From a bacterium (GTDB lineage Bacteria; Patescibacteriota; Minisyncoccia; Phycocordibacterales; UBA2100), in NCBI GenBank assembly GCA_030674455.1, contig JAUSGQ010000027.1, positions 18,786 through 82,785 on the forward strand: a DNA stretch of 64,000 nucleotides. Direction: 5' to 3'. Below, piece by piece: positions 10,744-31,565 of this stretch. The notes beneath the pieces were generated by a model. It was not told the origin of the DNA, made no database searches, and saw only the letters and a program-made list of their open reading frames with translations. The translations under genes and the position numbers were made by a program. Numbering within the stretch: the stretch's first letter is position 1; each line of letters begins with the position of its first letter.

Positions 10744-10764
10744 AAGTCAGATTAAGAAATACCC

Positions 10765-10811: not shown

Positions 10812-10995
10812 TTTGCAAGCTCCAAAAATCAATTTGCAAAGAAATTGCAAATTACAATTTCCAAAACGTACCGTTTAGGGACTGGATTTTTGGATATTGT
10901 TTGCGAATTGCAAATTGAGTTTTGCAAATTTGTGGCGTGGCACTGCTGTTGTGCGGATTTCGTTTTTGCGATATAGTCTTGGGCATAAACAGGAT

Positions 10996-11154: not shown

Positions 11155-11384
11155 CGCTGGTAATGATAATCGTTAAGAGATACTGCAAAACCATTTGCAG
11201 AAGGAAGGGGTCGGGAAACCTTCTGGTTTCCCGTGGAGGAAGGAATGGGAAAACCGAGGGTTTCCCAGGATGCTTACATGGTGCAGAGCGCACACCAAGC
11301 ACAAGGAGGCACGGAGGGGACGTAAAGGCGAAGTTGTGCATAACTAGCATGACACCGATTCTGCATTGCGGTGTACTATAACTA

Positions 11385-12068: not shown

Positions 12069-12133
12069 TTCAATGGCTAGAATTTCTCTCTCCAAAAGAG
12101 AAGATCAAGGTTCGAGTCCTTGTGGGCCCGCCA
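12059..12133 (+). tRNA. tRNA-Trp(CCA)
   Basis: Acceptor GGGCCTA/TGGGCCC, anticodon loop CTCCAAA, T-loop TTCGAGT, discriminator G, CCA encoded. Confidence 0.8.
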
Positions 12134-12164
12134 AAAACATCAAACTGCTATAATTGCGGTTCTG

Positions 12165-12707
12165 ATGGACTATATGACAAATTTCCTCCCAGCTCATCCG
12201 GAAGAAAAGAAAAGACTTGATGCACTTCATGCACTTGGTATTCTCGATACGGAACCAGATTCGGCGTTTGACGAGATTACCAAGGAGGTGACCAGGTTGC
12301 TGCACGTACCCATCTCAACGATTTCACTGATTGATAATGAGCGCGAATGGTACAAGTCGCGCCAGGGACTGCAAATGCGTGAAGGCCCTCGCGTTATTGC
12401 TTTTTGTAGTTGGGCATTGTTAGCGAAGCGCATATTTATCGTTGAAGATTTACTGAAGGACGAACGGTTCAAAGACAATCCGTATGTTACTGGCGATCCC
12501 CTCCTCCGTTTCTACGCGGGTGTACCCCTGTATGACTGGGGGAGCAGACTGCCAGTCGGGGTTCTATGTGCAAAAGACGTTAAACCGCGGACATTGAGCC
12601 TTAAAGAAATTGAAACCCTGCTTGTACTGGCTAAAGAAGCAGAAAATCTGATAAACAATTACCGATTGCATACCAAAAATAACTCTCCAGGAGGCAGATA
12701 TCCATAA
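12165..12707 (+). CDS. GAF-domain protein
   Basis: ALHALGILDTEPDSAFDEITKEVTRLLHVPISTISLIDNEREWYKSRQGL follows the GAF pattern. Start moved to MDYMTNF to avoid the tRNA overlap. Confidence 0.55.
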   Translation: MDYMTNFLPAHPEEKKRLDALHALGILDTEPDSAFDEITKEVTRLLHVPISTISLIDNEREWYKSRQGLQMREGPRVIAFCSWALLAKRIFIVEDLLKDERFKDNPYVTGDPLLRFYAGVPLYDWGSRLPVGVLCAKDVKPRTLSLKEIETLLVLAKEAENLINNYRLHTKNNSPGGRYP

Positions 12708-12768
12708 TCGAGATTTCTTGCGCACTCGTGACCGATTGGCAGCTATAGTTCAGGTGTATCATGCAATC

Positions 12769-18262: not shown

Positions 18263-18365
18263 TAAATGCGAGAAGCACCGACCGGGTGCCTTTCGCATTG
18301 GATGTGCCGGGAGAGGGACTTGGTCACAAATAATTCCTGTGCCGTCGCACAAGAATTTTCGCTAA

Positions 18366-18399
18366 GCCTATCCATTTGTGATAGGCACCTGTAGACGGC
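18366..18399 (-). repeat. 35-nt motif GCCGTCTACAGGTGCCTATC-N7-GATAGGC (copy 2 of 3)
   Basis: Reverse-complement copy; the others are at 8703-8737 and 19872-19904. Confidence 0.75.
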
Positions 18400-18528
18400 C
18401 CGGCTCGGCATTTCGCGTACTCGCGAGAATATGCCTCCGCCTTTCAAGTCCCTCGCGCGATGTGCGCAGGCACACCGCTTCCCACCACAGTCTCACTGCG
18501 TTCGTCTGTGGGGTTGTACGATGATGTA

Positions 18529-18696
18529 CGAACCTATTTTAGCAGGAACTCGGACTGACTCGCGCGCTCCGCGCGCGTGGTGGCTTTGTATTCTGTCTTG
18601 CGATTGGATTTTGTACCCGCCCCCGCCCCGCCGCACTCTCCTCCATACGCATCTATTTCGCGGGGGTTTTTGAAAATTGAATGGGCGGCGGGGCGG
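18529..18696 (+). repeat. Long inverted repeat P (left copy), about 168 bp
   Basis: About 90% identical to the reverse complement of 27706-27889, with one roughly 14-nt indel. It has an internal GC hairpin. Confidence 0.85.
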
Positions 18697-19278: not shown

Positions 19279-19824
19279 CTAAATCTTTTCGTAAACAACG
19301 CCGATACCAGTTTTCCCAACTTGTTTTATTTTTCCATCTTTCTCCAATGCAGAAAGATACCTCGTCGCCGTCGCGTCCGAGACATGCAAGAGTTTCTCCA
19401 CTTCGTCGTTTGTGACTTTGCCCTTCTTTTCCAATTCGGTCATTATCTTTTCGAGTTTGATTTTCTTTCTGCTTTGGATCGTCGCACGGGCTTTCGATAG
19501 TACATCACGACCGAGATTTACGATTGGCGCAACAACCGATACTGGCGCACTCGGCTGCGGCGCTGGTTGCTGCTCCGGTAACGGCTTGTCGTGAGCGGAG
19601 TCGAACGGCTCACTCGTAGCGGGTAACGGCTCATTTCTTCCCATTTGAGCCGTTTGCGTTGGCCCGCCGAAGCCTTGTGCGGAGGGGGCGGGTTCAAGTG
19701 GTGCTTCAACCACTGGTTCGTTTTGCGTTACCTCCGGTGTTGTGGGAGCCGGTGCCGCCTCCGGCGGCGGTATCACTGGTTCTTCCGCAGGTGGGAGAAC
19801 GGGCGATGTATCTTCGTCGGCCAT
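19279..19824 (-). CDS. Winged-HTH DNA-binding protein with Pro-rich N-terminal region
   Basis: C-terminal MTELEKKGKVTNDEVEKLLHVSDATATRYLSALEKDGKIKQVGKTGIGVVYEKI matches the wHTH fold found in Fic/DeoR-associated regulators. N-terminal 110 aa are low-complexity P/A/E-rich. Confidence 0.55.
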   Translation of the reverse strand: MADEDTSPVLPPAEEPVIPPPEAAPAPTTPEVTQNEPVVEAPLEPAPSAQGFGGPTQTAQMGRNEPLPATSEPFDSAHDKPLPEQQPAPQPSAPVSVVAPIVNLGRDVLSKARATIQSRKKIKLEKIMTELEKKGKVTNDEVEKLLHVSDATATRYLSALEKDGKIKQVGKTGIGVVYEKI

Positions 19825-19940
19825 GGCTCAATTCTAACTCATCAAACGGCTCATATAGTGGGGACATGAATGCCGTCTACAGGTGCCTATCTCAAACGAT
19901 AGGCCTTGCTTTTTCCGTAGAAAGTGGTATAATTAAATAG

Positions 19941-20069
19941 TTAAAGTTCCTCCGCGAGTTCAATCGCTTCGTCTTCGTCCAAACCTTCGTCAATCAATTC
20001 TTGCGCTTTCTCCGCGACATCCTCGTCCACCTCGTGTTCTTTCATCAATCGTTTCGTTTCTTCGTCCAT
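19941..20069 (-). CDS. 42-aa highly acidic peptide (MDEETKRLMKEHEVDEDVAEKAQELIDEGLDEDEAIELAEEL)
   Basis: Not in the ORF track (<60 aa). Its ATG lies 2 nt after the stop of the DUF4263-like gene (TGA-gc-ATG), implying translational coupling. The peptide is about 40% Asp/Glu. Confidence 0.5.
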   Translation of the reverse strand: MDEETKRLMKEHEVDEDVAEKAQELIDEGLDEDEAIELAEEL

Positions 20070-20071
20070 GC

Positions 20072-21220
20072 TCACTTGGATTTTTCAATATTATTGAGTG
20101 CATTTCTCGCCCTCTCCAACAGGTCATCGTAGGTTAGAATTTCTATTCCGTGATGGTACGAAAGTAATCTCCTCATATATTTCGGGTGATTGTCGGATTT
20201 TTGCTTAGTGCCTTCTATAGCATCCTTTGATCGTCTGCCAATCAAAAGAATACCTTTTGGTCGGTAATATTTCTGATGACGGTCTTCCAGGATTTCCTGC
20301 TCCGTTTCGTCATCCAGTTCCGAAGTATAAGCCGAGTAGTAAAATTCGAGATAACTTATGAGTTGACCCAACGCCTCAGCACACTTCGGCGCAAGAAACC
20401 TCCTGTCCATTTCGTCCACACGCAAGACTTCTTCCCCCGGCAACTTAACCTCCAGAACATCACTTAGGCCATCTACTCTCTTGAGTCGTCCGTCTGGAAT
20501 TTCTTCGCCAGCTTTCTTATAGTCATAGCTCGTGTATTCAGGACCGAATATCCATGGAATCTTCTTGAGTTCAGCTTGGATATCCGAAACTTCTCGCGAA
20601 GTTGGATTATCCAAAATCGCCTCAAAATCGTCGAGCTCTTTTCGCCGTTTTCCAATAATATCTTCGGTAAAGCCGATGGTCAACAACTTCTCCTCACCAC
20701 TACCCTTAACTATTTCTTCAACAATCTTGTCGATTGCTTTTGTTCCTCCGGGACTTTGAGCAATAACTGCTGTCTTACGCACAAGGTCATCGGTATCAAT
20801 TTCTTTATCGGAAAAAATAACAGTCGCGATTTTTGCATCAAAACTAACGCCCAACAGTTTATTTTGTTCCGTCAAGAAAGTATAGAGACCTGCCACCTCA
20901 TCTTCGCGCAGAGAAAAGTCTCTCTGTCTTTCCCAACTGTTTTGATCCGAGGTTTTATTTCTCTTAAATCTGTATAGGTCTATATCATAGTGGTGGACTT
21001 TCCCGGCTGAGTCTGGAATGTGTAGAGCAGTCACGACCGTCTTGATGCGGTCAGTGTTCTTGATAAATCTTGTTGCGCTTGCGAAGCCACCACTTTTGAG
21101 TTGGGCTGTACAATCATCAACTGTAATATCGCTTCCAGATTTTAGGCGGGACAACAGGTAACCGCCAAAATCGCCATAAGTTTCCTTAAATGAGGGTAAA
21201 ATTTCCTTCCAATTAATCAT
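20072..21220 (-). CDS. DUF4263 (Shedu SduA-like) PD-(D/E)xK nuclease-domain protein
   Basis: The C-terminal half carries IFGPEY...DGLSDVLEVKLPG (D..E-x-K), then KGILLIGRRS and a terminal IEILTYDDLLERA matching the DUF4263 pattern. The N-terminal half has no recognisable family. Confidence 0.5.
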   Translation of the reverse strand: MINWKEILPSFKETYGDFGGYLLSRLKSGSDITVDDCTAQLKSGGFASATRFIKNTDRIKTVVTALHIPDSAGKVHHYDIDLYRFKRNKTSDQNSWERQRDFSLREDEVAGLYTFLTEQNKLLGVSFDAKIATVIFSDKEIDTDDLVRKTAVIAQSPGGTKAIDKIVEEIVKGSGEEKLLTIGFTEDIIGKRRKELDDFEAILDNPTSREVSDIQAELKKIPWIFGPEYTSYDYKKAGEEIPDGRLKRVDGLSDVLEVKLPGEEVLRVDEMDRRFLAPKCAEALGQLISYLEFYYSAYTSELDDETEQEILEDRHQKYYRPKGILLIGRRSKDAIEGTKQKSDNHPKYMRRLLSYHHGIEILTYDDLLERARNALNNIEKSK

Positions 21221-21223
21221 AAG

Positions 21224-24200
21224 TCATTTAATCGGCCATGTGGGGATGGCTTTGTCTATTTCGCCCATGATACGGATTGTTTCGCGGAGGGAAACGACGA
21301 TTTTCATGTAGTGCTTTAGGTCGTCGGTAGAGAGCGTTCGCTCAGCTTTCTTACGGTCTTTGAGCCATTTCTCACATACTTGATAGCCGCCGATCATAAA
21401 CTCCCACACTTCTTTTTCGATACCCTCAAAGTATTGCCCTTGATTTACATAGACACGCAGTTCTTTTCCTTCGTATCGAGCCTCCGTTACTTTCCAATCG
21501 TCAAGATTAGCGGGAGCAGTACCGTCTATTTTGACATTCCATTTATTTGGCTCATCAAGAATAGTTTTTGATGCATCGAACGGATTTTCGCCAAGCAAAT
21601 GCAGGTTCACAAGCTCGTTTCCGAGCGCGACAAGTCGCTTGAAAATCTCCTTGTTGCTCGTGATAGGGAGACGGGGGAAATCAATCTTCAATTGTTCGGC
21701 GTAGCGCGTGCGATAGGTTGGCGAATGAAATACGGCGTAGGTGTAATAGAAAATGTCCTCGGGTCCAAAGGTTTTTACGATATCGCCTCGGCCCTCATGA
21801 ACGAATGTCAGCCCAAGATTCTCTTGTAAATCCCCAATCAATGTTTTGGAGAAATTCGACAATCGCTCCTCTCTCTTCAATAAAGATGGATTTGTAGACT
21901 CCGGGTAAAGATAGAGTGGAATGCTTACATTTCCTCCTCTATAGAACATATTTAGATCGCTGATTGCGTTTGAACAAAAGGCGAGATTCCAACCTGCTCC
22001 CCCTACAGCGTTTCCTGCTCTGCCTACACAGAGCGACAGGTTTGGAAACGTCATGTGTCGCATGACTTTTGTTCGAGGCCAGTCAACAGCATTTATATCC
22101 CAAAGAATGTAGCGTCTATCAAATGGGTTGTAGTCGTATGAATATATCAGTGACTGCCAGTTTATTGTCGATAGATTTCTTCTGGCTTTTGGCAATTTCC
22201 ATCCGCGGGTGTCTTTGAGTTGGAATTCATCTCTGACTTCTCTGTCGAGAGATTTTAAATCGGTAAAGCTACGGAATCTATTTATAAGCTCATTTTTTGA
22301 GAATGCAATTGCAAAATTATCTCGCGAGGTTTGAACACCGGTGGTTTTGAGTTTAGGATTTGAAACTGTCTCCTCAATCCCAAAGAGGCGGCCATATTCA
22401 TCCCCACCTTGAGAGTCCTCAAAGATGTACATCGGAGCAGATGGCTTCACTTCATCCCAATCGGTAGTTTGCAAGTCAGTAGTGGCAAGTCGTTCCCATT
22501 TATCAGCTCTCTTGCCCCGTAAATGCGCCTTAAAAATCTTTTTCTCAAGACCACGTTTCTTGATGAGGAAAATTATTGAAGTTCCAACACCAGCGACTTG
22601 CTCAAACACGTTTTGATCTTCCTCCTTTCTTTTTGCGCTTCCGTGTAAATCGTATATGTAAATCTGGTCGAAAGAGTTGATAAGGTGGTAGCGCATCCCT
22701 CGAAATGTTGGGTTGTCGACGAAGCCATTATTGGTAATGAGTCCGATGACCCCCTCTCCATGTTGCTCAATTTTCCATTGGGTAAATCGAATAAATTTTA
22801 CATAATCATCGCCAAGCCAATGCTTCCTCTCTTTGAAATGCCTGCCCGTGATCCTGTTGCCGTCTGTATATTTGTAATCTTCGATCAGGTCGCCGATCCA
22901 AGTCTTGATTTTCTTTTTCCGTGTTTTTCCATTCTTAAGAGTTTCTAAGATGGTTGTCTCGACGGCGTTTTGAGAAATTCCAGAATAAGGAGGATTACCC
23001 AATACCACCAAAATAGGCACATCCCGCTTTACTGTTTGTGCTTTCTCTGACTCGTGTGGGATTGAATCAAAACCGAAGAGTTTTTGGGGTGGTTTATTTG
23101 GGTCGTCGAGTGTGTTAGCAAGATACACCTTGAAGCGGTCGTTGTCTGAATCATCATCACTTGCAGTAAGTTTGAAATCAAAACCCAAGTGCTCAATTTC
23201 AAGAGTAAGTTTCAAATGGGCAATTGCATAAGGAGCTATTAGTAATTCGAAGCCGTAGAAATGTTTGAGAATGTGATTACCGACGATTTTGTTAAACTCG
23301 CGCGACACCATCTCATCTCCCAGCGCCTCATTCTCCTTTTTAGTATTCCAATAAATCTGTTGGATAGCGGACATGAGAAATGTTCCGGTGCCGGTGGCCG
23401 GATCGAGAAGGTTTACCGATTCATCAGCAAGCCCTTTTTCTTTCCCGAATTTATTACGGAGAATCCAATCAACGCTTCGCACGATGTAGTCCACGACTGG
23501 CTTCGGCGTGTAATACACTCCACGCGCCTCGCGCTCTTTTGGGTCATACTCGGCAAGAAACGGCTCGTAAAATTGGATAACAGGGTCTTCGCCCGGCTTG
23601 TGCTCAACAAGTTTTTGTCGGATGCGTTCGATTTCTGAAGCGTTTAACTGGTCTACAAGAAGCTGTGTAGATTGAGCAATGTTCGGAATCGCAGAGGCAA
23701 CTTTTTTAATCAAGCCGTATAAGTCGGCAAGAATGGGCACGTTAGTTGGAAGATAGTCAATTGCATTCGTGAGCGTAAGTTCTGTGTCGTTTCCTCTGTG
23801 TTCGTGCTCAAGAGCTGACAAGAACAAAGAATATGCCATGGTTTCTGCGACCATGTTCGCAAATTGGTGCGAGGAGATATCTTGAATAAGCGTTTTCTCA
23901 AATGTTTCTTTGAGTTTCCAAAGGTCTGTTTTTTCGTCAGTCATTTCTATCGCCTCTTCCACCTGCTTTGAAAGTAGACGTGTCTTTTTTGCGAGGGCGA
24001 GGGCAAGCTGTTTGGGCGTTCGTGCCTGATAAGCATGTCCCTCAAAAAACTTCACTAGAAATTGCTCAAATTGTTCCGAGGTTGTGCCATTTAAAGCGGT
24101 AAGATCAAAAACCACCTCGCTCGTTTTCTTTGGTTCGCCGTCTTCCCATTGCCAAAGTTGCCACTCACGCAGGTTAGTAAAGATTATATTCTCAAGAGAT

Positions 24201-24556
24201 TCTTTGTATTTAGAAAATTGGTCGTGGAATTTATCCGCGTTGAGATTTCTTTCGTCAGGCATTTTTACCTCAACCCATCCTATAAGGTCGTTTCTATTTC
24301 GTATAGTTATATCGGGGAAGCCGATTTTCTTTTCGTATTGAGTCGTTGTTTCTTCTGGTGTCGCATGAGTATCACGCAATTTGACGGCATCGCTTTTTGC
24401 GAACTCCTCAAAAAATCCACAAAGAATTGGGTAGTAAGATCGTTCCGTTGCTGTGTCTCGGATTCTCGCTATCTTTTGTTTTGTTTGTTCAATAAGTATA
24501 TTCATAGCGTTATGCAAGTATAGAAAAATGAACCGAGGCAATTCGCTCGCGTTCAA
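21224..24556 (-). CDS. MmeI-like Type IIL/IIG restriction-modification protein (PD-ExK nuclease + N6-adenine MTase + TRD)
   Basis: N-terminal D82..E96-V-K98 (FPDITIRNRNDLIGWVEVK). MTase motif I LLDPATGTGTFL and motif IV VLGNPPYSG. About 500 aa of C-terminal target-recognition region. An alternative start at M18 (24505) would remove the overlap with the SNF2 gene. Confidence 0.7.
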   Translation of the reverse strand: MNASELPRFIFLYLHNAMNILIEQTKQKIARIRDTATERSYYPILCGFFEEFAKSDAVKLRDTHATPEETTTQYEKKIGFPDITIRNRNDLIGWVEVKMPDERNLNADKFHDQFSKYKESLENIIFTNLREWQLWQWEDGEPKKTSEVVFDLTALNGTTSEQFEQFLVKFFEGHAYQARTPKQLALALAKKTRLLSKQVEEAIEMTDEKTDLWKLKETFEKTLIQDISSHQFANMVAETMAYSLFLSALEHEHRGNDTELTLTNAIDYLPTNVPILADLYGLIKKVASAIPNIAQSTQLLVDQLNASEIERIRQKLVEHKPGEDPVIQFYEPFLAEYDPKEREARGVYYTPKPVVDYIVRSVDWILRNKFGKEKGLADESVNLLDPATGTGTFLMSAIQQIYWNTKKENEALGDEMVSREFNKIVGNHILKHFYGFELLIAPYAIAHLKLTLEIEHLGFDFKLTASDDDSDNDRFKVYLANTLDDPNKPPQKLFGFDSIPHESEKAQTVKRDVPILVVLGNPPYSGISQNAVETTILETLKNGKTRKKKIKTWIGDLIEDYKYTDGNRITGRHFKERKHWLGDDYVKFIRFTQWKIEQHGEGVIGLITNNGFVDNPTFRGMRYHLINSFDQIYIYDLHGSAKRKEEDQNVFEQVAGVGTSIIFLIKKRGLEKKIFKAHLRGKRADKWERLATTDLQTTDWDEVKPSAPMYIFEDSQGGDEYGRLFGIEETVSNPKLKTTGVQTSRDNFAIAFSKNELINRFRSFTDLKSLDREVRDEFQLKDTRGWKLPKARRNLSTINWQSLIYSYDYNPFDRRYILWDINAVDWPRTKVMRHMTFPNLSLCVGRAGNAVGGAGWNLAFCSNAISDLNMFYRGGNVSIPLYLYPESTNPSLLKREERLSNFSKTLIGDLQENLGLTFVHEGRGDIVKTFGPEDIFYYTYAVFHSPTYRTRYAEQLKIDFPRLPITSNKEIFKRLVALGNELVNLHLLGENPFDASKTILDEPNKWNVKIDGTAPANLDDWKVTEARYEGKELRVYVNQGQYFEGIEKEVWEFMIGGYQVCEKWLKDRKKAERTLSTDDLKHYMKIVVSLRETIRIMGEIDKAIPTWPIK

Positions 24557-27500
24557 ATTCCATTTGTAGTTTACCCCGAAGATCCTTTTCTTTGATGTTC
24601 GCTCCGCGCATCTGGTCTTCTTGAGCTTTAATATATTTCTTCTGTGCGCGAAAGAGTTCCTGCTGTTTCTTACTTATTTGGTCTTGAATCTGAAGTCTTT
24701 CGTGATGTCCCAAAGTACGAGAAGCACGCACTGTCTTTTTTAGGTCGTTAATTTCTTTCCGCCGGACATCCATTTCTTGCTGAAACTTTAAGAGTGACTC
24801 TTCCACGAATTGGTTCAGGCGGTCCATTTCCTCAAAAATGTATTGCTCATTATCAGAGGTAATGCTCCCTTTTTCTTTAGTTACTCGTTTTGTGGCGACA
24901 TCCTCAAGGTCGTCGCGTAGACGGCTATCTATTCTCTCTTCATGGACAACATCGAGCGCAAACAACTTTTCAAGTCGAGAATGCTCTATTGGTTTCCACT
25001 CCGCTCCGTCTTTGTAAAGTCCTGAAAGGATTATTTTTTCGAATCTTTCTTGGGCATTATTTACTGTAAGGCGTTTGCAATTCAACAAATCAAAGGCAAT
25101 CTGACACTCTTTACCAACAAGATCTTCAAAAGGATGTCGTTTTTTGTCCGAACTGTGCCGAACAGATATTTTCCAAGTGCCACGCATCTTTTTGTCTCCC
25201 TCCAGTTTTTCTTTGATAAAGGGCTCTTTGTTTGTGGCTGGTTTATAGCCACTCAACTTTTCTTCCTCTTTTAGGCTACCGAGATAGTATGTCCGACCGT
25301 CATAATCAAAAATATTTTCTGCACGATAAGAAATTCCATTTCCAAATGAAATATCTATATATCGGCGAAGCAATGAGTCATACCGGTCAAGCGAGTCTGT
25401 AAGCTGTTGTTTTCTTAAGCGCAATTTCCGTCTAACTTCTTCATCAAAATGCTGCACAACTTTGCGTTGAGCATCTTCTACTTTTTCTTGGATAACATCA
25501 AAAAGCTCGAGCTGTAACTGTTGAAATCCGTTTTCAATCTCTTTTTCTGTGCGGCACTTTCTATATATATCAAGAATTTTTCTCTCAAAATCGAGTCCGG
25601 CTCCAAGCCCCGCAAGGGCCACCTCGCGAACTTCATAGCCATCGTCTGTAAGTTGTTCTGTTCCAAGCATTTGATCGCTGAAATCAAACAGGTTACCGAA
25701 TAGCTTAATTTTTTCACTTAAAAGTTCGTAGACTCTCTGGTCGGCGTAGTTGCGTTTGTTTAGGAAGTTAATAACCATCACATCTAATTTTTGGCCATAT
25801 CGATGACAACGGCCAATGCGCTGTTCAACGCGTTGAGGATTCCACGGTAAATCGTAGTTAATGACAATATTCGCAAACTGCAAGTTTAATCCCTCTGCCC
25901 CCGCCTCGGTTGTAATGAGAATCCCTTTTTTTAACGATTGAAACTTCCAAATAAGTGCTTTCCGCAAGTTGATTGATTTTGACCCTTCCTCGGCTTCTTT
26001 GGGAAATTCGCGTTGCCATTCCTCAAAAATCTCACGGGCGCGTTTTCCTGCGTTTGTTCCATTGAACAAAACAAGCTCGTACCCAATTCCTCCAAGAAGC
26101 TTTTCTAGGTGATCTTGTGTACGACGCGATTCGGTAAATATGACCGCCTTTTGTGGCCATTCTTGTTTCTCAGCATGTTTGAAAACTTTTCCGAGCACAC
26201 GAACGAGGGCTTGGCTTTTTTGGTTCTTATCAATCGTTGAGGCAAGGAAATGATAGTTTAGAACATCGCGAAGCTCACGTAAGACTTCTTCCTTTGTAAA
26301 TATGTGATCAATCTCTCTTTCAACAAACTTTTTTGAATCGTCGTCCAGCAATTCGTCCTCTCCAAGGTCGTCGGCATCTTCCGATTCCTCCTCAATTTTT
26401 GATAGATCTTCCTCTGTATCATCTAACCCGGGGAGAGTTTCTTGCTCGTTTTCTTTTTCAGCAGGGTCATATTTAGGAAAAGTAACTTTTGAAAGCTTTT
26501 TGTTCCACCTGTTCTCTGCTTCAGTCTGCTCCTGATCGGCAAGAGCGTTGAGTTCATCCTGAGTTACTTCAAATTCTTGCTGTAAACGCTTTGCAAGGAA
26601 ATGAGAAACTTTGTAAAGCGTTCCAGCGATAGCGAAACTCGAACTCGCGAGTATTTTTCGGTATACAAGCTCCATCATGTTTCGCTGAGTTGCCCTTGTA
26701 GACGCGAGATACGGCCGTCGCAAGTACTCGCTCACGTTATTGTAAAGATCCACCTCGTCGTCGTTTGGTGCAAAGTCTTCGGTAATGCTGTAGCGATTGG
26801 TAAACGCAACAAGTCCCTTGACCTGCTTGCGTAATGTTCTAGTCAAGATTCCACCGCTCGGTTCACCGGACTCTGGGTCAATAGTTCCCATTAGTCGTTC
26901 TTTTAATTGAAGCAATCTTTCTGTTTTGTTCTGTTTTTTCACAGGATTTGCGAAAAGTGTCTTGAACGAGTATTCCGTACCAAGATAATTTTCGTCAAGG
27001 AAACTTGTCAGCCCAAACAACTCCATGAGGTTATTCTGTAGAGGCGTTGCTGTTAAGAGTATTTTTGGCCTTCCTTTTAGGACCTCACGAATTTTCTTTG
27101 CGGTTTTATTGGTCTTTCTCCAAACATTTCGCAAGCGGTGTGCCTCGTCAATGACAACAAGATCCCATGTGATGGTTGCACAGATAAAATCGTATCGATA
27201 AGCAAAGTTGTGTGAAGCAATGAAGATACCCCCGTCTTCCAACGGGTTAGCTTTCATTTGTTCTTTTTGCATTTTTTTCAAAATTGGACCGTCAAGAATT
27301 TTGCTTTCAAGATAAAAACGGTTTCGCAGTTCGTCTTGCCATTGCGTACGAAGTGAGGCGGGCACGAGAATCAATATCTTCTGACGCCCCTCTGTCATAA
27401 GTTGATCTATGACTAGTCCTGCCTCAATTGTCTTTCCTAGCCCAACCTCATCGGCCAAAATTGCCCCTCTTGAAAGAGGGCTCTTAAATGCGAAAATTGC

Positions 27501-27629
27501 GGCATCAACCTGATGCGGGTTTAGGTCAATATTTGCCGCTCGAATGGAATTGTTGAGCTTCTCTCTGTCAGAAATTGATTTCTTCTCCGTGAGAGCATGA
27601 GCTAAATATGTTTTAAAAAGTTCCGACAT
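24510..27629 (-). CDS. SNF2-family helicase/translocase with about 450-aa C-terminal coiled-coil extension
   Basis: Motif I ADEVGLGKT, motif II VVIDEAHRLRN, LLTATPLQNNLMELF, and helicase-C motif VI QRIGRCHRYGQ. The C-terminal 450 aa are charged and coiled-coil with no known domain. Confidence 0.8.
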   Translation of the reverse strand: MSELFKTYLAHALTEKKSISDREKLNNSIRAANIDLNPHQVDAAIFAFKSPLSRGAILADEVGLGKTIEAGLVIDQLMTEGRQKILILVPASLRTQWQDELRNRFYLESKILDGPILKKMQKEQMKANPLEDGGIFIASHNFAYRYDFICATITWDLVVIDEAHRLRNVWRKTNKTAKKIREVLKGRPKILLTATPLQNNLMELFGLTSFLDENYLGTEYSFKTLFANPVKKQNKTERLLQLKERLMGTIDPESGEPSGGILTRTLRKQVKGLVAFTNRYSITEDFAPNDDEVDLYNNVSEYLRRPYLASTRATQRNMMELVYRKILASSSFAIAGTLYKVSHFLAKRLQQEFEVTQDELNALADQEQTEAENRWNKKLSKVTFPKYDPAEKENEQETLPGLDDTEEDLSKIEEESEDADDLGEDELLDDDSKKFVEREIDHIFTKEEVLRELRDVLNYHFLASTIDKNQKSQALVRVLGKVFKHAEKQEWPQKAVIFTESRRTQDHLEKLLGGIGYELVLFNGTNAGKRAREIFEEWQREFPKEAEEGSKSINLRKALIWKFQSLKKGILITTEAGAEGLNLQFANIVINYDLPWNPQRVEQRIGRCHRYGQKLDVMVINFLNKRNYADQRVYELLSEKIKLFGNLFDFSDQMLGTEQLTDDGYEVREVALAGLGAGLDFERKILDIYRKCRTEKEIENGFQQLQLELFDVIQEKVEDAQRKVVQHFDEEVRRKLRLRKQQLTDSLDRYDSLLRRYIDISFGNGISYRAENIFDYDGRTYYLGSLKEEEKLSGYKPATNKEPFIKEKLEGDKKMRGTWKISVRHSSDKKRHPFEDLVGKECQIAFDLLNCKRLTVNNAQERFEKIILSGLYKDGAEWKPIEHSRLEKLFALDVVHEERIDSRLRDDLEDVATKRVTKEKGSITSDNEQYIFEEMDRLNQFVEESLLKFQQEMDVRRKEINDLKKTVRASRTLGHHERLQIQDQISKKQQELFRAQKKYIKAQEDQMRGANIKEKDLRGKLQMEFERERIASVHFSILA

Positions 27630-27705: not shown

Positions 27706-27889
27706 CCGCCCCGCCACCCATTCAATTTTCAAAAACCCCCGCGAAATAGATGCGTATGGAAGAGAGTGCGGCGGGGCGGGCGGGCGCGTACTCGCGCCCG
27801 TGTACAGAATCCAATCGTGCCACAGAGTACAAAGCCACAGCGCGCGCGGAGCGCGCGAGTCAGTCGGAGTTCCTGCTAAAATAGGTTCG
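27706..27889 (-). repeat. Long inverted repeat P' (right copy)
   Basis: Reverse complement of 18529-18696, with an extra hairpin CGGGCGCGTACTCGCGCCCG. Confidence 0.85.
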
Positions 27890-27907
27890 AGCATCGTTGT
27901 AGATACT

Positions 27908-28069
27908 CACAACACAAGAGACAAGGTCGGATTTCGGCTGGTTTTCTTTGGCGCGGGACAAAGAAAACCAGTGTGGTTGGGGCATTCCGCGCGCTTCGCG
28001 CGCGTGGAGGGTGAGGTTCGCAAAATTCAAAAGCCGAAGATTTTTGGAGGGAGGATTTTTTGGAGGGGA
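27908..28069 (+). repeat. Long inverted repeat Q (left copy), about 160 bp
   Basis: Near-identical to the reverse complement of 31332-31483 apart from an 11-nt indel. Contiguous with P'. Confidence 0.85.
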
Positions 28070-28072
28070 AAG

Positions 28073-29719
28073 TTAATTAAGTCTTTTGATAACATCTTTA
28101 TCAACTCGAATCCCACTTAGTCGGTTCTTATCTATCCATCTTAGGAATTCAGATGGTCGCATTGGTTTTCCCGCAAAGCGATTGGCCCAAAGGAAGTAGC
28201 ATTGCTTTCGAGTGCGCGTTAGAGCTACAAGGAACCTAAAAATTTCCAGTTCTTTTATGTTGTTTGGATCTCTAGGGAGGTCGCCATTATGCAACCCAAC
28301 AATAAATACAAATTGAGCAGAAAGGCCTTTGGCACCCTCGTAAGAGGTTAATTTTATAGTTGGCTGCTCCGATTCGTGTTGAGTTGCGACAATTTCCACT
28401 GGCTTTTCCCACTTTTCAGCCTCTGAAAGCAAAGCGTCTCTATAACTTGCTTCTATCTCGTCGAACAGTGGTTTTTGATGCTTTACTGCTTTTTCGAGCG
28501 CGCTTCGAGAAAAATTAGGGTTATCTGCTTCAAGGGCAATACGCCATCCGATATTAGAATTCGGGTTTTCTTTAAGGTAAGGCAATGCCATTGAATGAGT
28601 TATCTTGGTGGTTTCTTCCCCACCTGCACGATAATCAATTATAAATCCCTCATCTTGCAGATGTTTGGCAATCTGGGATAGATACTGTTTTGGTCCTATT
28701 ACCAAAGCAGTGGGGAATTTATCTTTGATGGATTCGGTTATATATTCTTTAGGAATCTTTTTGATTATATGCGCCACGGTTCGTCCGAGGTAATTTGTTT
28801 TGAGTTGTTGGGCTGAAATTTCCAGCACCTTGATTTTAGGGTGAGCCGTACTGTCTTTCCGTCTGTAAGGTTCAAAATATTTGTATGGCTTATCTATACG
28901 TCCGGGCAGAAGCTTTTTCTGCTTAGCAACCTCAATTACATCCGCGAATGAATTTACAATAACTTCGGGGCAACGGAGGCAAAAAGGTAATTCACAATTC
29001 TCAAACTCATCAGCTCGCCATAAATGTCGGATGAATTCGTAGCTGGCACCTTTAAGTTGACTATAAAGGGCTTGGTCATCATCTCCAGCAACAGCAATGG
29101 AATTATCTAAACTCAAAAGATCTATCAAACTTACTTCAAGCCGGTTGAAATCTTGATATTCATCAACCAACACAAGTTTGTATCGTGGAACTTTAACTTT
29201 ACCAGTGGAATAAACGGAATGAACTCTGAAAATAGAGTCATCAAAACTGACCGTATCATAGTAATTTGAGCGAGATAGATAAAAATCCGATTCTGCGTTT
29301 TCTAATGTATTGCGCATATTTCCCACAAATTTCGGGGCTTCTTTTGTATGTAGAATTTCCCAATCTCTTTTTATCAAGGTTGGTAAGTTGGGAAAAATCT
29401 TGAATTTTTCTGACAACCCCTCCCGAAGGTTAGGATTTTCGTGTAGAAGCTTTACGCAATAACCATGAAATGTGAAAACTTGGGCAAGATGACCCAGTTT
29501 TTCATCTAGCTCGTCCTTTAAGTTATTTATAAAAGTTAAGACAAGCTGACTCCTTGCCCCGTCGTTATTTTTCTCAAGCAATTCTTTAAATAATGTTGTC
29601 TTTCCGGCTCCAGGACCTGCTAGTATTACTTTTTTGGGGTGGTCCGAAATAACAATTTTTTTGATTGCCGCCTTAAGCTCTTCTTCCATATTTGCGGACG
29701 TATGCTTCAGTTCAGCCAT
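28073..29719 (-). CDS. UvrD/Rep-like SF1 DNA helicase
   Basis: Walker A ILAGPGAGKTTLF, motif II VLVDEYQDF, and a UvrD_C-like GAKGLSAQFVFIVGL...LVALTRTRKQCYF. Confidence 0.7.
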   Translation of the reverse strand: MAELKHTSANMEEELKAAIKKIVISDHPKKVILAGPGAGKTTLFKELLEKNNDGARSQLVLTFINNLKDELDEKLGHLAQVFTFHGYCVKLLHENPNLREGLSEKFKIFPNLPTLIKRDWEILHTKEAPKFVGNMRNTLENAESDFYLSRSNYYDTVSFDDSIFRVHSVYSTGKVKVPRYKLVLVDEYQDFNRLEVSLIDLLSLDNSIAVAGDDDQALYSQLKGASYEFIRHLWRADEFENCELPFCLRCPEVIVNSFADVIEVAKQKKLLPGRIDKPYKYFEPYRRKDSTAHPKIKVLEISAQQLKTNYLGRTVAHIIKKIPKEYITESIKDKFPTALVIGPKQYLSQIAKHLQDEGFIIDYRAGGEETTKITHSMALPYLKENPNSNIGWRIALEADNPNFSRSALEKAVKHQKPLFDEIEASYRDALLSEAEKWEKPVEIVATQHESEQPTIKLTSYEGAKGLSAQFVFIVGLHNGDLPRDPNNIKELEIFRFLVALTRTRKQCYFLWANRFAGKPMRPSEFLRWIDKNRLSGIRVDKDVIKRLN

Positions 29720-29950: not shown

Positions 29951-31510
29951 ATGTTGAAAGGTAATAGTATGTTATATGATACTACTATGACCCATTTCCT
30001 CTACGCACGCAAAAGCACCGATGTTGAGGACAAGCAAGTCCTTTCTATTGAAGCGCAACTTTTTGAGTTGCGCGCGCTCGCGCGAGAAAATAATTTGGAA
30101 ATTGCCGCGGAGTTTGTTGAAAAGCAATCGGCGAAAATGCCTGGCCGTCCTATTTTCAATGACATGACGGCACGAATACAAAAAGGTGAAGCACAAGGAA
30201 TCATTTGTTGGAAACTTGATCGTCTCGCGCGCAATCCAGTGGACGGCGGGCAGATTAGTTGGTTTTTGCAAAACGGCATCATCGCACACATTCAGACGCA
30301 CGACCGCGCGTATTATTCCGCCGACAATGTTTTGATGATGTCGGTGGAATTCGGTATGGCGAATCAATATGTGCGCGACCTTGCGACGAACACCGCGCGT
30401 GGCTTACGACAGAAAGCGCGACAAGGTGTATATCCGGGCCAAGCGCCACTCGGATATTTGAATGACCCGCGTACAAAAACTATTGCGGTAGACCGCAAAA
30501 AATCCAAAATCGTGCGCGCCGCTTTTGAGCTGTACGCTCAAAACGGCTCGCGTTTAGAAGATGTCTCGCACTTTCTTTTCGATAATGGTATTACTACAAA
30601 AGCGACGAACCGATGGAAAAGTAGCGGAGAGAGGCCGCTGAAAAAAGACCAAGCAAAATTGATACTCACGAATTCTTTTTATTACGGCCACTTTCGCTAT
30701 GCCGGAGAAATGTACGAGGGAAAGCATACGCCGATTGTTTCCAAAGAGCTTTTTGACAAAGTGCAAAAAGTTTTAGCTCTGCGCGGCAAAGTACAACGGC
30801 ACACAAAAGAGCCGCAGGCTCTTTGTGGCCTTTTGAAATGCGGAGAGTGCGGATGTTCTATCACAGCCGAGGTGCAGACGAAGAAAAGCGGGAGACAATA
30901 TATTTACTACCACTGCACCAAAAAGCGCGGAGTATGTGATGGGGCATACATACGCGAAGAAACACTCGATACGCAACTCTCCGAGCTGCTGTCGCGTTTT
31001 CACTTGCCGCCCGCGTGGGCGAGTGAATTACAGAAAATGACGGAGCGCGACGAGGCAGAAGCCACTCAAACTACGGCGGCGTCTGTTCAAGAAATGCGAG
31101 CAAAGATTGCCGAGTTGGACGGCAAAATTGCTCGCATCACCGACCTCTTTGTGGAGCAGGATATTGAGCGCGGCGAGTATCTTGAAAGGAAACGCGCGCT
31201 GATGTCCGAAAAGAAGTCGCTACAAGAGCGTTCGCTCTTGCTTGAACGGAACGCCACCGTGTGGCTCGAACCCATGCGCAAGTGGATAAACGACGCTTCA
31301 ATGCTTGAAGAAATAGCAAAATCCCAAGACCTCCCCTCCAAAAAATCCTCCCTCCAAAAAATCTTCGGCTCGAACCTCACCCTCCACGCGCGCGAAGCGC
31401 GCGGAATGCCCCAACCACACTGGTTTTCTTTGTCCCGCGCCAAAGAAAACCAGCCGAAATCCGACCTTGTCTCTTGTGTTGTGCCGGGAGAGGGACTTGA
31501 ACCCTCATGA
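29951..31510 (+). CDS. Large serine recombinase (resolvase/invertase N-domain + recombinase domain + zinc ribbon)
   Basis: Catalytic YARKSTDVEDKQ...SIEAQ, a Cys cluster CGECGCS...YYHC, and a coiled-coil C-region. The last ~60 codons run through repeat Q' and 29 nt into tRNA-Leu, so the true stop is uncertain. Confidence 0.8.
   Translation: MLKGNSMLYDTTMTHFLYARKSTDVEDKQVLSIEAQLFELRALARENNLEIAAEFVEKQSAKMPGRPIFNDMTARIQKGEAQGIICWKLDRLARNPVDGGQISWFLQNGIIAHIQTHDRAYYSADNVLMMSVEFGMANQYVRDLATNTARGLRQKARQGVYPGQAPLGYLNDPRTKTIAVDRKKSKIVRAAFELYAQNGSRLEDVSHFLFDNGITTKATNRWKSSGERPLKKDQAKLILTNSFYYGHFRYAGEMYEGKHTPIVSKELFDKVQKVLALRGKVQRHTKEPQALCGLLKCGECGCSITAEVQTKKSGRQYIYYHCTKKRGVCDGAYIREETLDTQLSELLSRFHLPPAWASELQKMTERDEAEATQTTAASVQEMRAKIAELDGKIARITDLFVEQDIERGEYLERKRALMSEKKSLQERSLLLERNATVWLEPMRKWINDASMLEEIAKSQDLPSKKSSLQKIFGSNLTLHAREARGMPQPHWFSLSRAKENQPKSDLVSCVVPGEGLEPS
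31332..31483 (-). repeat. Long inverted repeat Q' (right copy) abutting the tRNA-Leu 3' end
   Basis: Reverse complement of Q. Homology ends exactly at the tRNA discriminator base. Confidence 0.85.
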
Positions 31511-31565
31511 GCTTGCGCTCGAACGATCTTGAGTCGTTTGCGTCTGCCAATTCCGCCATCCCGGC
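31482..31565 (-). tRNA. tRNA-Leu(CAA)
   Basis: Minus-strand cloverleaf with acceptor GCCGGGA/TCCCGGC, anticodon loop CTCAAGA, a long variable arm (GAGCGCAAGCTC) and T-loop TTCAAGT. Confidence 0.8.

What the first reader, a model, noticed from the sequence alone, without database searches (positions are those of the whole stretch)
19941..27629. Candidate novel defence operon: SNF2 translocase + MmeI-like nuclease-methyltransferase + Shedu-like (DUF4263) nuclease + acidic 42-aa peptide
Four minus-strand genes are packed with 2-6 nt gaps or a 47-nt overlap, indicating an operon with translational coupling. The first is a 1039-aa SNF2 ATPase with an unexplained 450-aa coiled-coil tail. The second is a 1110-aa protein with a D82/E96/K98 PD-ExK nuclease motif, N6-adenine MTase motifs (DPATGTGTFL, NPPY) and a long TRD, which is MmeI/Type IIL architecture. 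The third is a 382-aa protein whose C-terminal half matches the DUF4263/Shedu nuclease pattern (D..EVK, KGILLIGRR, EILTYDDLL). The fourth is a 42-aa peptide of roughly 40% Asp/Glu. Known Type ISP enzymes fuse nuclease, SF2 translocase, MTase and TRD in one chain. DISARM pairs SNF2 with an adenine MTase, and Shedu is normally stand-alone. This particular split combination is not one I recognise as a described system. It could be a translocase-assisted Type IIL/ISP-like RM with an accessory nuclease and a small acidic regulator or DNA mimic.
Basis: partly seen in the sequence, partly recalled or inferred. Interest (0 to 1): 0.85.

Follow-up and report, generated by a model that had tools for sequence, protein, structure and literature searches.

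The report
Restriction island carrying a Shedu nuclease
A mobile DNA island in an uncultured bacterium carries a restriction-modification enzyme paired with a motor protein, plus an add-on Shedu nuclease and a tiny acidic protein; every part is of a known kind, and only the motor-enzyme pair recurs elsewhere as a unit.

Summary
They are a RapA/DrmD-like SNF2 ATPase, a single-chain PD-ExK + N6A-methyltransferase + Type_ISP_C enzyme (Type IIG/IIL build), a type-I Shedu (DUF4263) nuclease and a 42-aa acidic protein, spaced 4, 3 and 2 nt apart. The "47-nt overlap" is an artefact of a TTG start.

The four do not form a conserved system:
- SNF2→IIG is a conserved pair, found in 37 of 42 informative metagenome loci.
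- The gene after it is a variable slot. Sister loci carry an LmuB-like ATPase, a Ppl-like protein, Cas4-like nucleases or nothing there.
- No other locus has this Shedu gene in the operon.
- Its closest relatives sit inside Type I RM operons, between hsdS and hsdR, in 6 of 8 contexts.
- Shedu genes inside RM loci have been described (602 of 5,499 in Gu et al.).
- The peptide is under purifying selection and recurs after a different third gene.

The locus lies in a ~13-kb, low-GC island integrated at tRNA-Leu, with a large serine recombinase. I read it as layered defence on a mobile island. It is a new variant of known kinds, of moderate interest. The open question is what the SNF2 partner does.

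The parts
24510..27629 (-). RapA/DrmD-like SNF2 ATPase, 1039 aa. ATPase core about 25-650 with an acidic insert about 390-441. Tail: helices 679-765, beta domain 767-899 plus strand 1023-1038, coiled-coil hairpin 906-1019.
   Evidence: Pfam SNF2-rel_dom and Helicase_C. PADLOC DrmD PDLC02619, E 3e-159. NCBIfam DrmD_b 530 bits, below the 950 cutoff. AF2 model. The five best Foldseek hits are E. coli RapA over about 1130 columns.
21224..24505 (-). Single-chain RM enzyme, 1093 aa. N-terminal PD-ExK nuclease (D65, E79, K81) plus helical region (1-320), gamma-class N6-adenine MTase (about 320-735), Type ISP-type TRD (about 736-1093). NCBI names it 'type ISP restriction/modification enzyme'.
   Evidence: A full-length 31% relative, BafPKo_Q0015, is a stand-alone Borrelia RM gene.
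20072..21220 (-). Type-I Shedu nuclease (SduA-like), 382 aa. Variable N-terminal domain plus helical linker; C-terminal DUF4263 PD-(D/E)xK domain with E228, D254, E257, K259 and Q286.
   Evidence: Pfam SduA_C 43.5 bits. PADLOC SduA 1e-15. Profile against PDB 8ps4, E 1.5e-10. AF2 plus Foldseek 8ps4/8ps5/8ti8/8ti9. Conserved motif columns.
19941..20069 (-). 42-aa acidic protein MDEETKRLMKEHEVDEDVAEKAQELIDEGLDEDEAIELAEEL, the last gene of the operon. No known family.
   Evidence: Called as a gene in L006. 90-93% identical in L092-L094 after a different gene. 18 synonymous against 3 non-synonymous codon differences; flanks unalignable. No Pfam hit; best is UPF0181 at E 0.11.
19279..19824 (-). 181-aa protein with a Pro/Ala/Glu-rich N-terminal half and a C-terminal winged HTH. 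Possible island regulator, 116 nt downstream of the peptide gene.
   Evidence: Pfam HTH_24/DeoR-like. A 51% relative lies two genes after the RM gene in L116.
28073..29719 (-). UvrD/GajB-like SF1 helicase, 548 aa. No GajA partner. Absent from all sister loci.
   Evidence: Pfam UvrD-helicase. PADLOC GajB 1.8e-26. No tblastn hit in the fetched loci.
29951..31510 (+). Large serine recombinase, 519 aa. Its last codons run into the tRNA-Leu gene.
   Evidence: Pfam Resolvase, Recombinase and Zn_ribbon_recom. Relatives lie divergently upstream of SNF2 in sister loci.
31481..31565 (-). tRNA-Leu(CAA), the integration target at the right end of the island.
   Evidence: ARAGORN. Rfam tRNA 54.5 bits.
18303..18322 (.). 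Perfect 20-nt direct repeat of the tRNA-Leu 3' end (equal to 31480-31499). Outer candidate for the left boundary of the island.
   Evidence: the repeat finder D11. Sequence view. GC 0.40-0.45 inside against about 0.50 outside.
18507..18696 (.). TGTG core plus a P'-like arm. Inverted repeat of 27706-27911 (84-97% identity). Inner candidate attL.
   Evidence: the repeat finder I2 and I3.. Related arms occur in L093 and L094.
27706..28073 (.). attP-like junction in inverted orientation. It comprises a copy of the recombinase 3' end (27908-28020, 113 nt, 100% identical to 31371-31483), the TGTG core and a P'-like arm.
   Evidence: the repeat finder I1-I5.. A related arm occurs in L101.

Best explanation
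This is a composite, layered defence locus on a ~13-kb integrative island. The island has a large serine recombinase and sits at tRNA-Leu in a genome whose homologues are mostly from CPR/Patescibacteria.

Layer 1 is a conserved two-gene RM module. A single-chain Type IIG/IIL-type enzyme presumably methylates one adenine in an asymmetric site and cuts unmodified DNA with its N-terminal PD-ExK domain. It is always preceded by a RapA/DrmD-like SNF2 ATPase. I infer that the ATPase supplies ATP-driven DNA translocation or remodelling to the RM enzyme.

Layer 2 is a type-I Shedu nuclease that landed in the variable accessory slot after the RM gene. It comes from a lineage that normally sits between hsdS and hsdR of Type I systems. 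I infer that it acts autonomously as an end- or structure-sensing nuclease. It would finish off DNA that restriction has linearised, or back up the RM when the RM fails.

The 42-aa acidic protein is a conserved operon-terminal gene of unknown role. It is not specific to Shedu.

Shown: gene structure, family membership, catalytic motifs, the conserved SNF2-RM pairing, the variable third slot, and the island context. Inferred: every activity, the SNF2-RM coupling mechanism, and the RM-Shedu synergy.
For: Domains and motifs.

SNF2→RM pairing:
- L007, L008 and L009 and 37 of 42 informative loci, with gaps of 2-20 nt.
- At least 40 shared contig lengths between the two top-120 homologue lists.
- SNF2 divergence tracks the RM N-terminal nuclease region (Spearman 0.94, n=22). 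It does not track the MTase (0.38) or the TRD (0.36).

Variable slot: LmuB/AriA-like ATPase, Ppl-like protein, PDC-M30A, Cas4-like PD-(D/E)xK nucleases, DUF2130, unknowns or nothing.

Shedu gene: absent from the operon in 48 sister loci. This lineage lies inside Type I RM in 6 of 8 contexts and stands alone in one.

Literature: Shedu within RM and BREX loci; E. coli SduA senses free DNA ends and nicks; auxiliary and backup nucleases around RM-like systems.

Autonomy of the RM family: relatives are stand-alone on plasmids, and purified Borrelia proteins including BafPKo_Q0015 cut unmethylated plasmid but not methylated plasmid.

Island.
Against: No activity was measured. The 3-nt and 2-nt gaps mean Shedu and the peptide are co-translated with the RM gene, so a closer functional tie cannot be excluded.

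Five loci of the same RM subfamily lack the SNF2 (L105/L106, L122, L132, L134). More distant full-length relatives are stand-alone. No SNF2-RM fusion was seen. The SNF2 may therefore be dispensable rather than a motor subunit.

The SNF2 / N-terminal co-divergence could simply reflect physical adjacency, combined with swapping of the 3' part of the operon.

The N-terminal domain of this Shedu differs from E. coli SduA in sequence, so end sensing is an extrapolation.
Confidence: 0.6

Rival explanations
1. Split Type ISP-like enzyme. The SNF2 ATPase is the obligatory motor of the RM protein. The RM protein recognises an unmethylated site and loads or activates SNF2. Translocation brings two head-to-head complexes into collision, and the PD-ExK domains then cut at non-specific distant positions, as in LlaGI/LlaBIII but with two polypeptides and a RapA-type motor.
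For: Strict adjacency at 4 nt and pairing in 37 of 42 loci. The MTase-TRD is homologous to LlaBIII (E 5e-42) and Type_ISP_C scores 290 bits. SNF2 and the nuclease-bearing N-terminus co-diverge while the MTase-TRD does not; this matches the nuclease+motor / MTase+TRD split of Type ISP and Type I. Enzymes that methylate a single strand need long-range site communication.
Against: The protein has MmeI/DrdV domain order with its own nuclease. Stand-alone relatives include a Borrelia enzyme active as purified protein. Five loci of the subfamily lack SNF2. No fusion appears among the top 120 homologues or the top 150 representative clusters. The same SNF2 family also sits next to Type III-like systems that already have a Res ATPase.
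Confidence: 0.3
2. PrrC-like guard. The Shedu nuclease is held inactive by the RM complex. It is released when a phage anti-restriction protein disables the RM, giving an abortive or backup response.
For: In 6 of 8 contexts the gene lies between hsdS and hsdR with overlapping stop and start codons, the same position as prrC in EcoprrI (PMC1484252). Both partner types contain a PF02384 N6_Mtase module.
Against: The same lineage occurs with two unrelated RM architectures and also stands alone in L140. This argues against a specific protein-protein latch. Characterised Shedu enzymes are autonomous and self-inhibited through their own N-terminal domains.
Confidence: 0.15
3. Mere neighbours. All four genes are independent defence genes that accreted in a mobile island, with no functional coupling even between SNF2 and the RM enzyme.
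For: The slot is variable and sister islands are mosaic. RM relatives are autonomous and Shedu is autonomous.
Against: The SNF2→RM order, strand and 2-20-nt spacing are kept from 91% down to about 50% identity. Relatives of this SNF2 family are consistently linked to an RM of one type or another.
Confidence: 0.15
4. Reduced class 1 DISARM: a DrmD + DrmMI module that has lost DrmABC.
For: The best PADLOC and NCBIfam hits of the SNF2 are DrmD models. Class 1 DISARM places drmD next to an N6A methylase that targets an asymmetric site.
Against: DrmD_b scores 530 bits against a cutoff of 950, and DrmD 195 against 610. All sampled relatives are also below cutoff. The RM protein hits no DrmMI model. 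No DrmA/B/C is present in the island. The MTase protein carries a nuclease domain.
Confidence: 0.05

Closest known systems
Shedu (SduA, DUF4263) nucleases encoded inside RM loci (Gu et al., bioRxiv 10.1101/2023.08.10.552793; E. coli SduA, Loeff et al.)
   Same: A type-I layout of about 380 aa with a C-terminal DUF4263 PD-(D/E)xK domain. All catalytic motifs are present. Predicted fold matches solved Shedu structures. The gene is embedded in an RM operon, as in 602 of 5,499 Shedu genes.
   Different: The N-terminal domain belongs to a CPR-centred lineage with no Pfam hit. Here the host operon is an SNF2 + Type IIG pair rather than the Type I operon usual for this lineage. No activity data exist.
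Type IIL / IIG single-chain RM enzymes (MmeI, DrdV PDB 7lo5; Borrelia plasmid enzymes such as BafPKo_Q0015)
   Same: The order is N-terminal PD-ExK nuclease, helical region, gamma-class N6A MTase, C-terminal TRD, in about 1,050-1,100 aa. DrdV aligns over residues 298-1054 (E 7e-39). BafPKo_Q0015 is 31% identical over 99% of the length.
   Different: Pfam MmeI_Mtase scores below its cutoff and no other MmeI-specific Pfam family appeared among the hits. The TRD is the Type ISP kind. In this subfamily the gene is nearly always preceded by an SNF2 ATPase gene, which the characterised enzymes lack.
Type ISP RM enzymes LlaGI / LlaBIII (PDB 5ffj, 4xqk)
   Same: The MTase-TRD is homologous (E 5e-42; Type_ISP_C 290 bits). 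A nuclease, an SF2 ATPase, an MTase and a TRD are all encoded together.
   Different: In Type ISP all four domains lie in one chain, in the order nuclease-ATPase-MTase-TRD, with an HsdR-like motor. Here the ATPase is a separate RapA/DrmD-type SNF2 protein and the nuclease is fused directly to the MTase.
Class 1 DISARM DrmD + DrmMI, and BREX type 3 BrxHII
   Same: A RapA-like SNF2 ATPase is encoded next to an N6A methyltransferase acting on asymmetric sites. The best family hits of the SNF2 are DrmD, then BrxHI/BrxHII.
   Different: There are no DrmA/B/C and no PglZ/BrxC. All scores fall below the curated cutoffs. The methyltransferase protein carries its own nuclease.
EcoprrI-PrrC (an effector gene embedded between hsdS and hsdR)
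   Same: The Shedu lineage occupies the same position in Type I operons, with overlapping codons. An effector sits inside an RM operon.
   Different: PrrC is an ABC-ATPase-regulated tRNase, not a DNase. No evidence shows that this Shedu is silenced by the RM. This is an analogy only.

Membership tests
Shedu (SduA) | C-terminal DUF4263 / SduA_C domain above the family threshold | tested here: met
   PF14082 scores 43.5 bits against a cutoff of 27, residues 210-368. 16 PADLOC SduA models hit, down to 1e-15. Family profile against PDB 8ps4, E 1.5e-10.
Shedu (SduA) | PD-(D/E)xK catalytic motifs I-IV | tested here: met
   E257, K259 and Q286 are invariant. E228 and D254 are at least 90% conserved in 17 homologues. 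The motif scheme follows Gu et al..
Shedu (SduA) | Shedu fold | tested here: met
   AF2 model with mean pLDDT 74. Foldseek PDB ranks 1-9 are E. coli SduA and B. cereus Shedu, followed by EndoMS/NucS.
Shedu (SduA) | Single-gene, autonomous anti-phage activity; tetramer; DNA-end sensing | not testable with these tools
   Only context is available: one stand-alone member (L140), six in Type I RM operons, one here.
Type IIL/IIG (MmeI family) | One chain with N-terminal PD-ExK, gamma N6A MTase (motif I DPATGTGTF, motif IV NPPY) and C-terminal TRD | tested here: met
   Sequence. D65/E79/K81 are invariant. PADLOC REase_MTase_IIG 701 bits, model positions 46-1073 of 1096. DrdV 7lo5, E 7e-39.
Type IIL/IIG (MmeI family) | Match to MmeI-specific Pfam models | tested here: not met
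   MmeI_Mtase PF20473 scores 25.0 bits against a cutoff of 27. No other MmeI-named family appeared among the Pfam hits.
Type IIL/IIG (MmeI family) | ATP-independent cleavage at a fixed distance; one-strand methylation | not testable with these tools
   Needs enzyme assays and a methylome.
Type ISP (LlaGI/LlaBIII) | A single polypeptide containing nuclease, SF2 ATPase, MTase and TRD | tested here: not met
   The 1093-aa protein has no ATPase domain. The ATPase is a separate gene. No fused form appears among the top 120 homologues or the top 150 representative clusters.
Type ISP (LlaGI/LlaBIII) | Type ISP MTase-TRD module (PF18135) | tested here: met
   Type_ISP_C 290.5 bits, model positions 5-341 of 342. 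LlaBIII 4xqk, E 4.7e-42 over residues 293-974.
DISARM class 1 | Core DrmA (helicase), DrmB (DUF1998) and DrmC (PLD) | tested here: not met
   No island ORF is a DrmA, DrmB or DrmC. The only DrmA hit is the SNF2 helicase core itself, at 1e-30.
DISARM class 1 | DrmD equivalog score | tested here: not met
   NF038318 scores 530 against a cutoff of 950; NF038317 scores 195 against 610. Six relatives score 541-701, also below cutoff.
DISARM class 1 | DrmMI methyltransferase | tested here: not met
   The 18 PADLOC families hit by the RM protein include no DrmMI model.
BREX-related (BR) systems of Rakesh & Krishnan 2026 | DUF499/BrxC-like ATPase core next to the SNF2 helicase and MTase | tested here: not met
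   No such protein is present in the island. System definition taken.
Integrative island of the large-serine-recombinase type | Recombinase gene, tRNA target, flanking repeat, compositional shift, housekeeping flanks | tested here: met
   Excision was not observed.

The most novel reading that the evidence does not exclude
The conserved SNF2 + single-chain nuclease-MTase-TRD pair is a distinct, so far unnamed class of ATP-dependent RM. It would be a two-polypeptide analogue of Type ISP driven by a RapA/DrmD-type motor, part of a wider rule that RapA-like SNF2 ATPases partner with methyltransferases marking only one strand of asymmetric sites (this pair, Type III-like loci, DISARM class 1, BREX type 3). 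In this island the Shedu nuclease would be wired downstream of the pair, activated by the DNA ends it produces. The 42-aa acidic protein would act as an inhibitor or DNA mimic that restrains the operon's nucleases.
Probability: 0.2. Interest if true: 0.7.

Novelty: new variant of a known kind. Interest (0 to 1): 0.42.

Why it matters
1. The analysis separates a real conserved unit (SNF2 + Type IIG/IIL enzyme) from an accidental passenger (Shedu). Annotation pipelines would otherwise report a 'type ISP enzyme' plus an orphan DrmD-like helicase.
2. The pair offers a simple two-gene system for asking what RapA-like SNF2 ATPases do for methylation-based defence. That question is still open for DISARM class 1 and BREX type 3.
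3. A Shedu lineage habitually lies between hsdS and hsdR, and here sits behind a different RM. This is a convenient test case for whether RM and Shedu act in series, with restriction making the ends and Shedu sensing them.
4. The small serine-recombinase islands with a swappable effector slot show how CPR bacteria with tiny genomes exchange defence cargo.

Tried and rejected
- **BREX-related 'BR' systems**: these are DUF499-centred, and no such gene is present.
- **DISARM**: rejected on thresholds and missing core genes.
- **Borrelia BBE02**: I expected it to be the characterised relative. It shares only the MTase motifs. The true relatives are other Borrelia plasmid genes such as BafPKo_Q0015.
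- **Genome-contig scan with the SNF2 alignment**: None has a detectable homologue of this RM protein. On inspection these sit next to Type III-like systems.
- **Rosetta-stone search for SNF2-RM fusions**: none found.
- **A shared contig length of 9705** between the Shedu and RM hit lists was a coincidence; L141 is another Type I context.
- **Peptide**: no Pfam, PADLOC or NCBIfam family even at E≤10. No diverged acidic small ORFs in other sister loci.
- **Rfam**: only the tRNA in 16-33 kb.
- **Promoter and terminator scans**: not above the shuffled expectation.
- **Inverted attP-like junction**: I could not derive a recombination history that explains it.

Full report
**1. What is in the sequence.**

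Four minus-strand ORFs lie at the stated coordinates. The second ORF is listed from a TTG at 24556. However, homologues from three other loci all begin at the Met encoded by ATG 24505. NCBI's own protein for this contig is 1093 aa, identical over its whole length (P0241). With that start, the SNF2 stop and the next ATG are 4 nt apart. The second and third genes are 3 nt apart, and the third gene and the peptide ATG (20069) are 2 nt apart. Tight packing that implies co-transcription is confirmed.

**2. The SNF2 protein.**

- It has SNF2-rel_dom and Helicase_C.
- The Walker A motif (GLGKT), DEAH and motif VI (QRIGRCHRYGQ) are invariant across 12 homologues spanning 40-85% identity.
- Its best family matches are DISARM DrmD models (PADLOC PDLC02619, E 3e-159; NCBIfam DrmD_b, 530 bits). 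The curated cutoff is 950, and six relatives I sampled also score only 541-701. It is a sister clade of DrmD, not DrmD.
- The C-terminal ~390 residues are conserved at full length in more than 80 homologues of 50-91% identity.
- AlphaFold models the tail with pLDDT 75-92. It consists of helices, a beta-rich domain and a long antiparallel coiled coil.
- The five best Foldseek matches in the PDB are all E. coli RapA, aligned over about 1130 columns. Eukaryotic remodellers align only over the ATPase.

The "unexplained tail" is thus the RapA/DrmD-type C-terminal module. This architecture has already been noted for BREX BrxHII and related helicases.

**3. The second protein.**

- It has an N-terminal PD-ExK motif, GFPD65...E79-V-K81. 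The motif is invariant in the family.
- It has a gamma-class N6-adenine MTase (DPATGTGTF, NPPY) and a C-terminal Type_ISP_C domain at 290 bits.
- PADLOC's Type IIG model covers it end to end at 701 bits.
- Among solved structures its MTase-TRD is closest to LlaBIII (E 5e-42), DrdV (7lo5, E 7e-39 over residues 298-1054) and LlaGI.
- The MmeI-specific Pfam model falls just below its cutoff.

Full-length relatives of 31-32% identity are stand-alone genes on plasmids of Pseudomonas, Agrobacterium and Borrelia, with no SNF2 gene nearby. One of them, BafPKo_Q0015, belongs to a set of Borrelia genes whose purified products cut unmethylated plasmid but not methylated plasmid (PMC11546952). The N-terminal 320 residues define a large family: 1,077 clusters at E≤1e-3. 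In every top hit this region sits at the N-terminus of a protein of about 1,000-1,300 aa and is never fused behind an ATPase.

**4. Which genes belong together.**

SNF2 and the RM gene form a conserved pair.
- Three looked-up homologues at 85, 71 and 55% identity have the same RM gene immediately downstream.
- A metagenome scan seeded with the RM N-terminal region returned 47 loci, of which 42 are informative about the upstream side. Of those, 37 carry the SNF2 gene directly upstream on the same strand. Several of these loci are near-duplicates.
- Five informative loci lack the SNF2.
- Across 22 complete loci, SNF2 identity to the window tracks identity of the RM N-terminal region (Spearman 0.94). 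It does not track the MTase (0.38) or the TRD (0.36).

This last pattern fits a motor+nuclease / MTase+TRD modularity. It is equally explained by adjacency combined with swapping of the 3' half of the operon.

The third position is variable. Sister loci carry there an 813-aa LmuB/AriA-like ABC ATPase, a 905-aa Ppl-like protein, a PDC-M30A-like protein, Cas4-like PD-(D/E)xK nucleases, DUF2130, small unknown proteins, or nothing. A profile of the Shedu family searched against all ORFs of 48 sister loci found one hit. It is a distant Shedu gene on the opposite strand in L125, and all positive controls scored above 430 bits. 29 of the metagenome loci have at least 1.2 kb of sequence after the RM gene.

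**5. The Shedu protein.**

Membership is solid.
- SduA_C scores above the Pfam threshold and 16 PADLOC SduA models hit.
- The family profile matches PDB 8ps4.
- The AlphaFold model (pLDDT 74) has its nine best PDB matches in E. coli SduA and B. cereus Shedu.
- Motifs I-IV are present: E228, D254, E257-x-K259, Q286.
- At 382 aa with a C-terminal DUF4263 domain, it is a "type I" Shedu in the sense of Loeff et al..

Its relatives (126 hits) come largely from CPR lineages. In the eight distinct contexts I could read:
- six lie inside Type I RM operons, immediately upstream of hsdR and after hsdS, often with 4-nt overlaps (L001/L002, L003, L004/L005, L138, L139, L141);
- one is stand-alone in a small recombinase-bearing island (L140);
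- one is this window.

Gu et al. already reported 602 of 5,499 Shedu genes within Type I-IV RM loci and 87 within BREX, and suggested that Shedu complements these systems. Shedu in an RM operon is thus a described pattern. The window is an instance with an unusual RM partner.

**6. The peptide.**

The 42-aa ORF (19/42 Asp+Glu) is a real gene.
- It was called independently on another assembly (L006).
- It recurs at 90-93% amino-acid identity in L092-L094. Against L092 it has 18 synonymous and 3 non-synonymous codon differences, and 19 of 23 changes fall at third positions. Sequence on both sides is unalignable.
- In those loci it follows the LmuB-like ATPase, not a Shedu gene.
- No Shedu gene in a Type I context is followed by it.

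It therefore belongs to the frame of this operon clade (SNF2-RM-X-peptide), not to Shedu. It shows an internal repeat, (V/L)DED(V/E)A, and matches no known family. Its function is unknown. An inhibitor or DNA-mimic role is speculation.

**7. Context.**

The operon lies in a low-GC segment (0.40-0.45 against about 0.50), between housekeeping genes: MiaA on the left; ParB, RelA/SpoT and TopA on the right.

A 519-aa large serine recombinase reads into tRNA-Leu(CAA) at the right end. A perfect 20-nt copy of the tRNA 3' end lies at 18303-18322. Sister loci have a related recombinase divergently upstream of SNF2. In this window, a UvrD/GajB-like helicase gene and an inverted attP-like junction (27706-28073) are interposed at that position.

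The junction joins a 113-nt perfect copy of the recombinase 3' end to a copy of the island's left-end arm. Related arms occur at the borders of sister cassettes. I could not reconstruct the history of this arrangement.

**8. The wider SNF2 family.**

More distant relatives (33-44% identity) sit next to Type III-like systems: AIPR + N6_N4 MTase + ResIII, or MTase + AAA_21 + ResIII. A 41% relative sits near an Eco57I-type IIG enzyme. This SNF2 family is therefore a recurrent companion of several RM types, including ones that already have their own ATPase. That weakens the idea that it is simply the missing motor of this enzyme. It suggests a more general helper role.

**9. How it most likely works.**

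Shown: the architecture, the motifs, which genes are linked, and the mobility context.

Inferred:
- The RM protein methylates one strand of an asymmetric site and cleaves unmodified DNA.
- The SNF2 ATPase is functionally coupled to it. I put this at about 0.75 on synteny. The mode of coupling is unresolved among translocation for long-range site communication, protein clearing, and control of methylation.
- Shedu is an independent second layer. E. coli SduA recognises free DNA ends and nicks, so restriction products are plausible triggers. This is an extrapolation, because the N-terminal domain here differs from that of E. coli SduA.

The rivals are an obligate split Type ISP-like enzyme, a PrrC-like guard, unrelated neighbours, and reduced DISARM. 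They are listed with their evidence in the Rival explanations section.

**10. Verdict.**

The locus is a new variant of known kinds: a Type IIG/IIL RM enzyme with a conserved DrmD-like SNF2 partner, carrying a Shedu passenger and a conserved small acidic protein, on a serine-recombinase island. Interest is moderate. The SNF2-RM pair and the peptide are the parts worth an experiment. The four-gene "system" as such is not conserved.

Noticed in passing
window 18303-18322, 18507-18696, 27706-28073, 31329-31499: Four sites share a TGTG core. 31480 looks like attR (recombinase 3' end | tRNA) and 18507 like attL. 27911 (minus strand) looks like an intact attP in inverted orientation. The defence operon is therefore bracketed by inverted 84-97% arms, and UvrD + recombinase by perfect 113-nt inverted arms. 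Possible readings are an invertible segment, nested insertion of two related elements, or an assembly artefact.
   Followed up: partly
window 29951-31510 / 31481-31565: The serine recombinase ORF crosses the att core. In the integrated form its last 10 residues (PGEGLEPS* region) are read from the tRNA-Leu gene. On an attP-type junction, as at 27908, it would instead end ...VVSIYNDARTYFSRNSD*.
   Followed up: partly
window 28073-29719: A UvrD/GajB-like SF1 helicase (PADLOC GajB 1.8e-26) has no GajA/OLD partner and no homologue in any of the sister islands. Together with the inverted att-like junction, it looks like an insertion between SNF2 and the recombinase.
   Followed up: partly
L001 6467-14635; L003 7120-14660; L004 375-7792; L138; L139; L141: A CPR-centred Shedu lineage sits between hsdS and hsdR of Type I RM operons, often with 4-nt overlaps. 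A YgjP-like hydrolase gene frequently follows hsdR. This is the same position as prrC in EcoprrI.
   Followed up: yes
L012, L014, L015, L017, L030, L036 (SNF2 at about 10001-12800 in most): DrmD-like SNF2 ATPases of 33-44% identity, all below the NCBIfam DrmD_b cutoff, lie next to Type III-like modules (AIPR + N6_N4_Mtase + ResIII, or MTase + AAA_21 + ResIII). This suggests an RM-associated SNF2 clade distinct from DISARM.
   Followed up: partly
L092 6887-7069: A second small acidic ORF (60 aa) lies directly after the RM gene and before the LmuB-like ATPase in the sister island. It is unrelated in sequence to the 42-aa peptide.
   Followed up: no
window 18375-18399 and 19872-19896: A 25-nt inverted repeat (96% identity) brackets the wHTH gene and the GC-rich non-coding stretch. 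The right copy forms the hairpin just downstream of the peptide gene.
   Followed up: no
window 19279-19824; L116 5560-6102: A 181-aa protein with a Pro/Ala/Glu-rich N-terminal half and a C-terminal winged HTH recurs (51% identity) two genes after the RM gene in another island. It may be an island or operon regulator.
   Followed up: partly
L125 7818-8891 (-): A distant Shedu gene (profile E 4.5e-24) lies convergent to the SNF2-RM pair, next to a serine recombinase, in one sister island. Shedu genes seem to land repeatedly in these islands, but not in the operon.
   Followed up: partly
window 21224-23545 compared with L091-L131: Within the RM protein, the MTase (46-65% identity) and the TRD (34-63%) diverge independently of the N-terminal region (46-86%) and of SNF2. 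This is consistent with swapping or diversification of specificity modules.
   Followed up: yes
window 18561-18583, 27841-27863, 27988-28010, 31387-31409: GC-rich palindromic motifs (CGCGCGCTCCGCGCGCG and variants) recur inside the att-like arms. They may be recombinase or accessory-factor binding sites.
   Followed up: no
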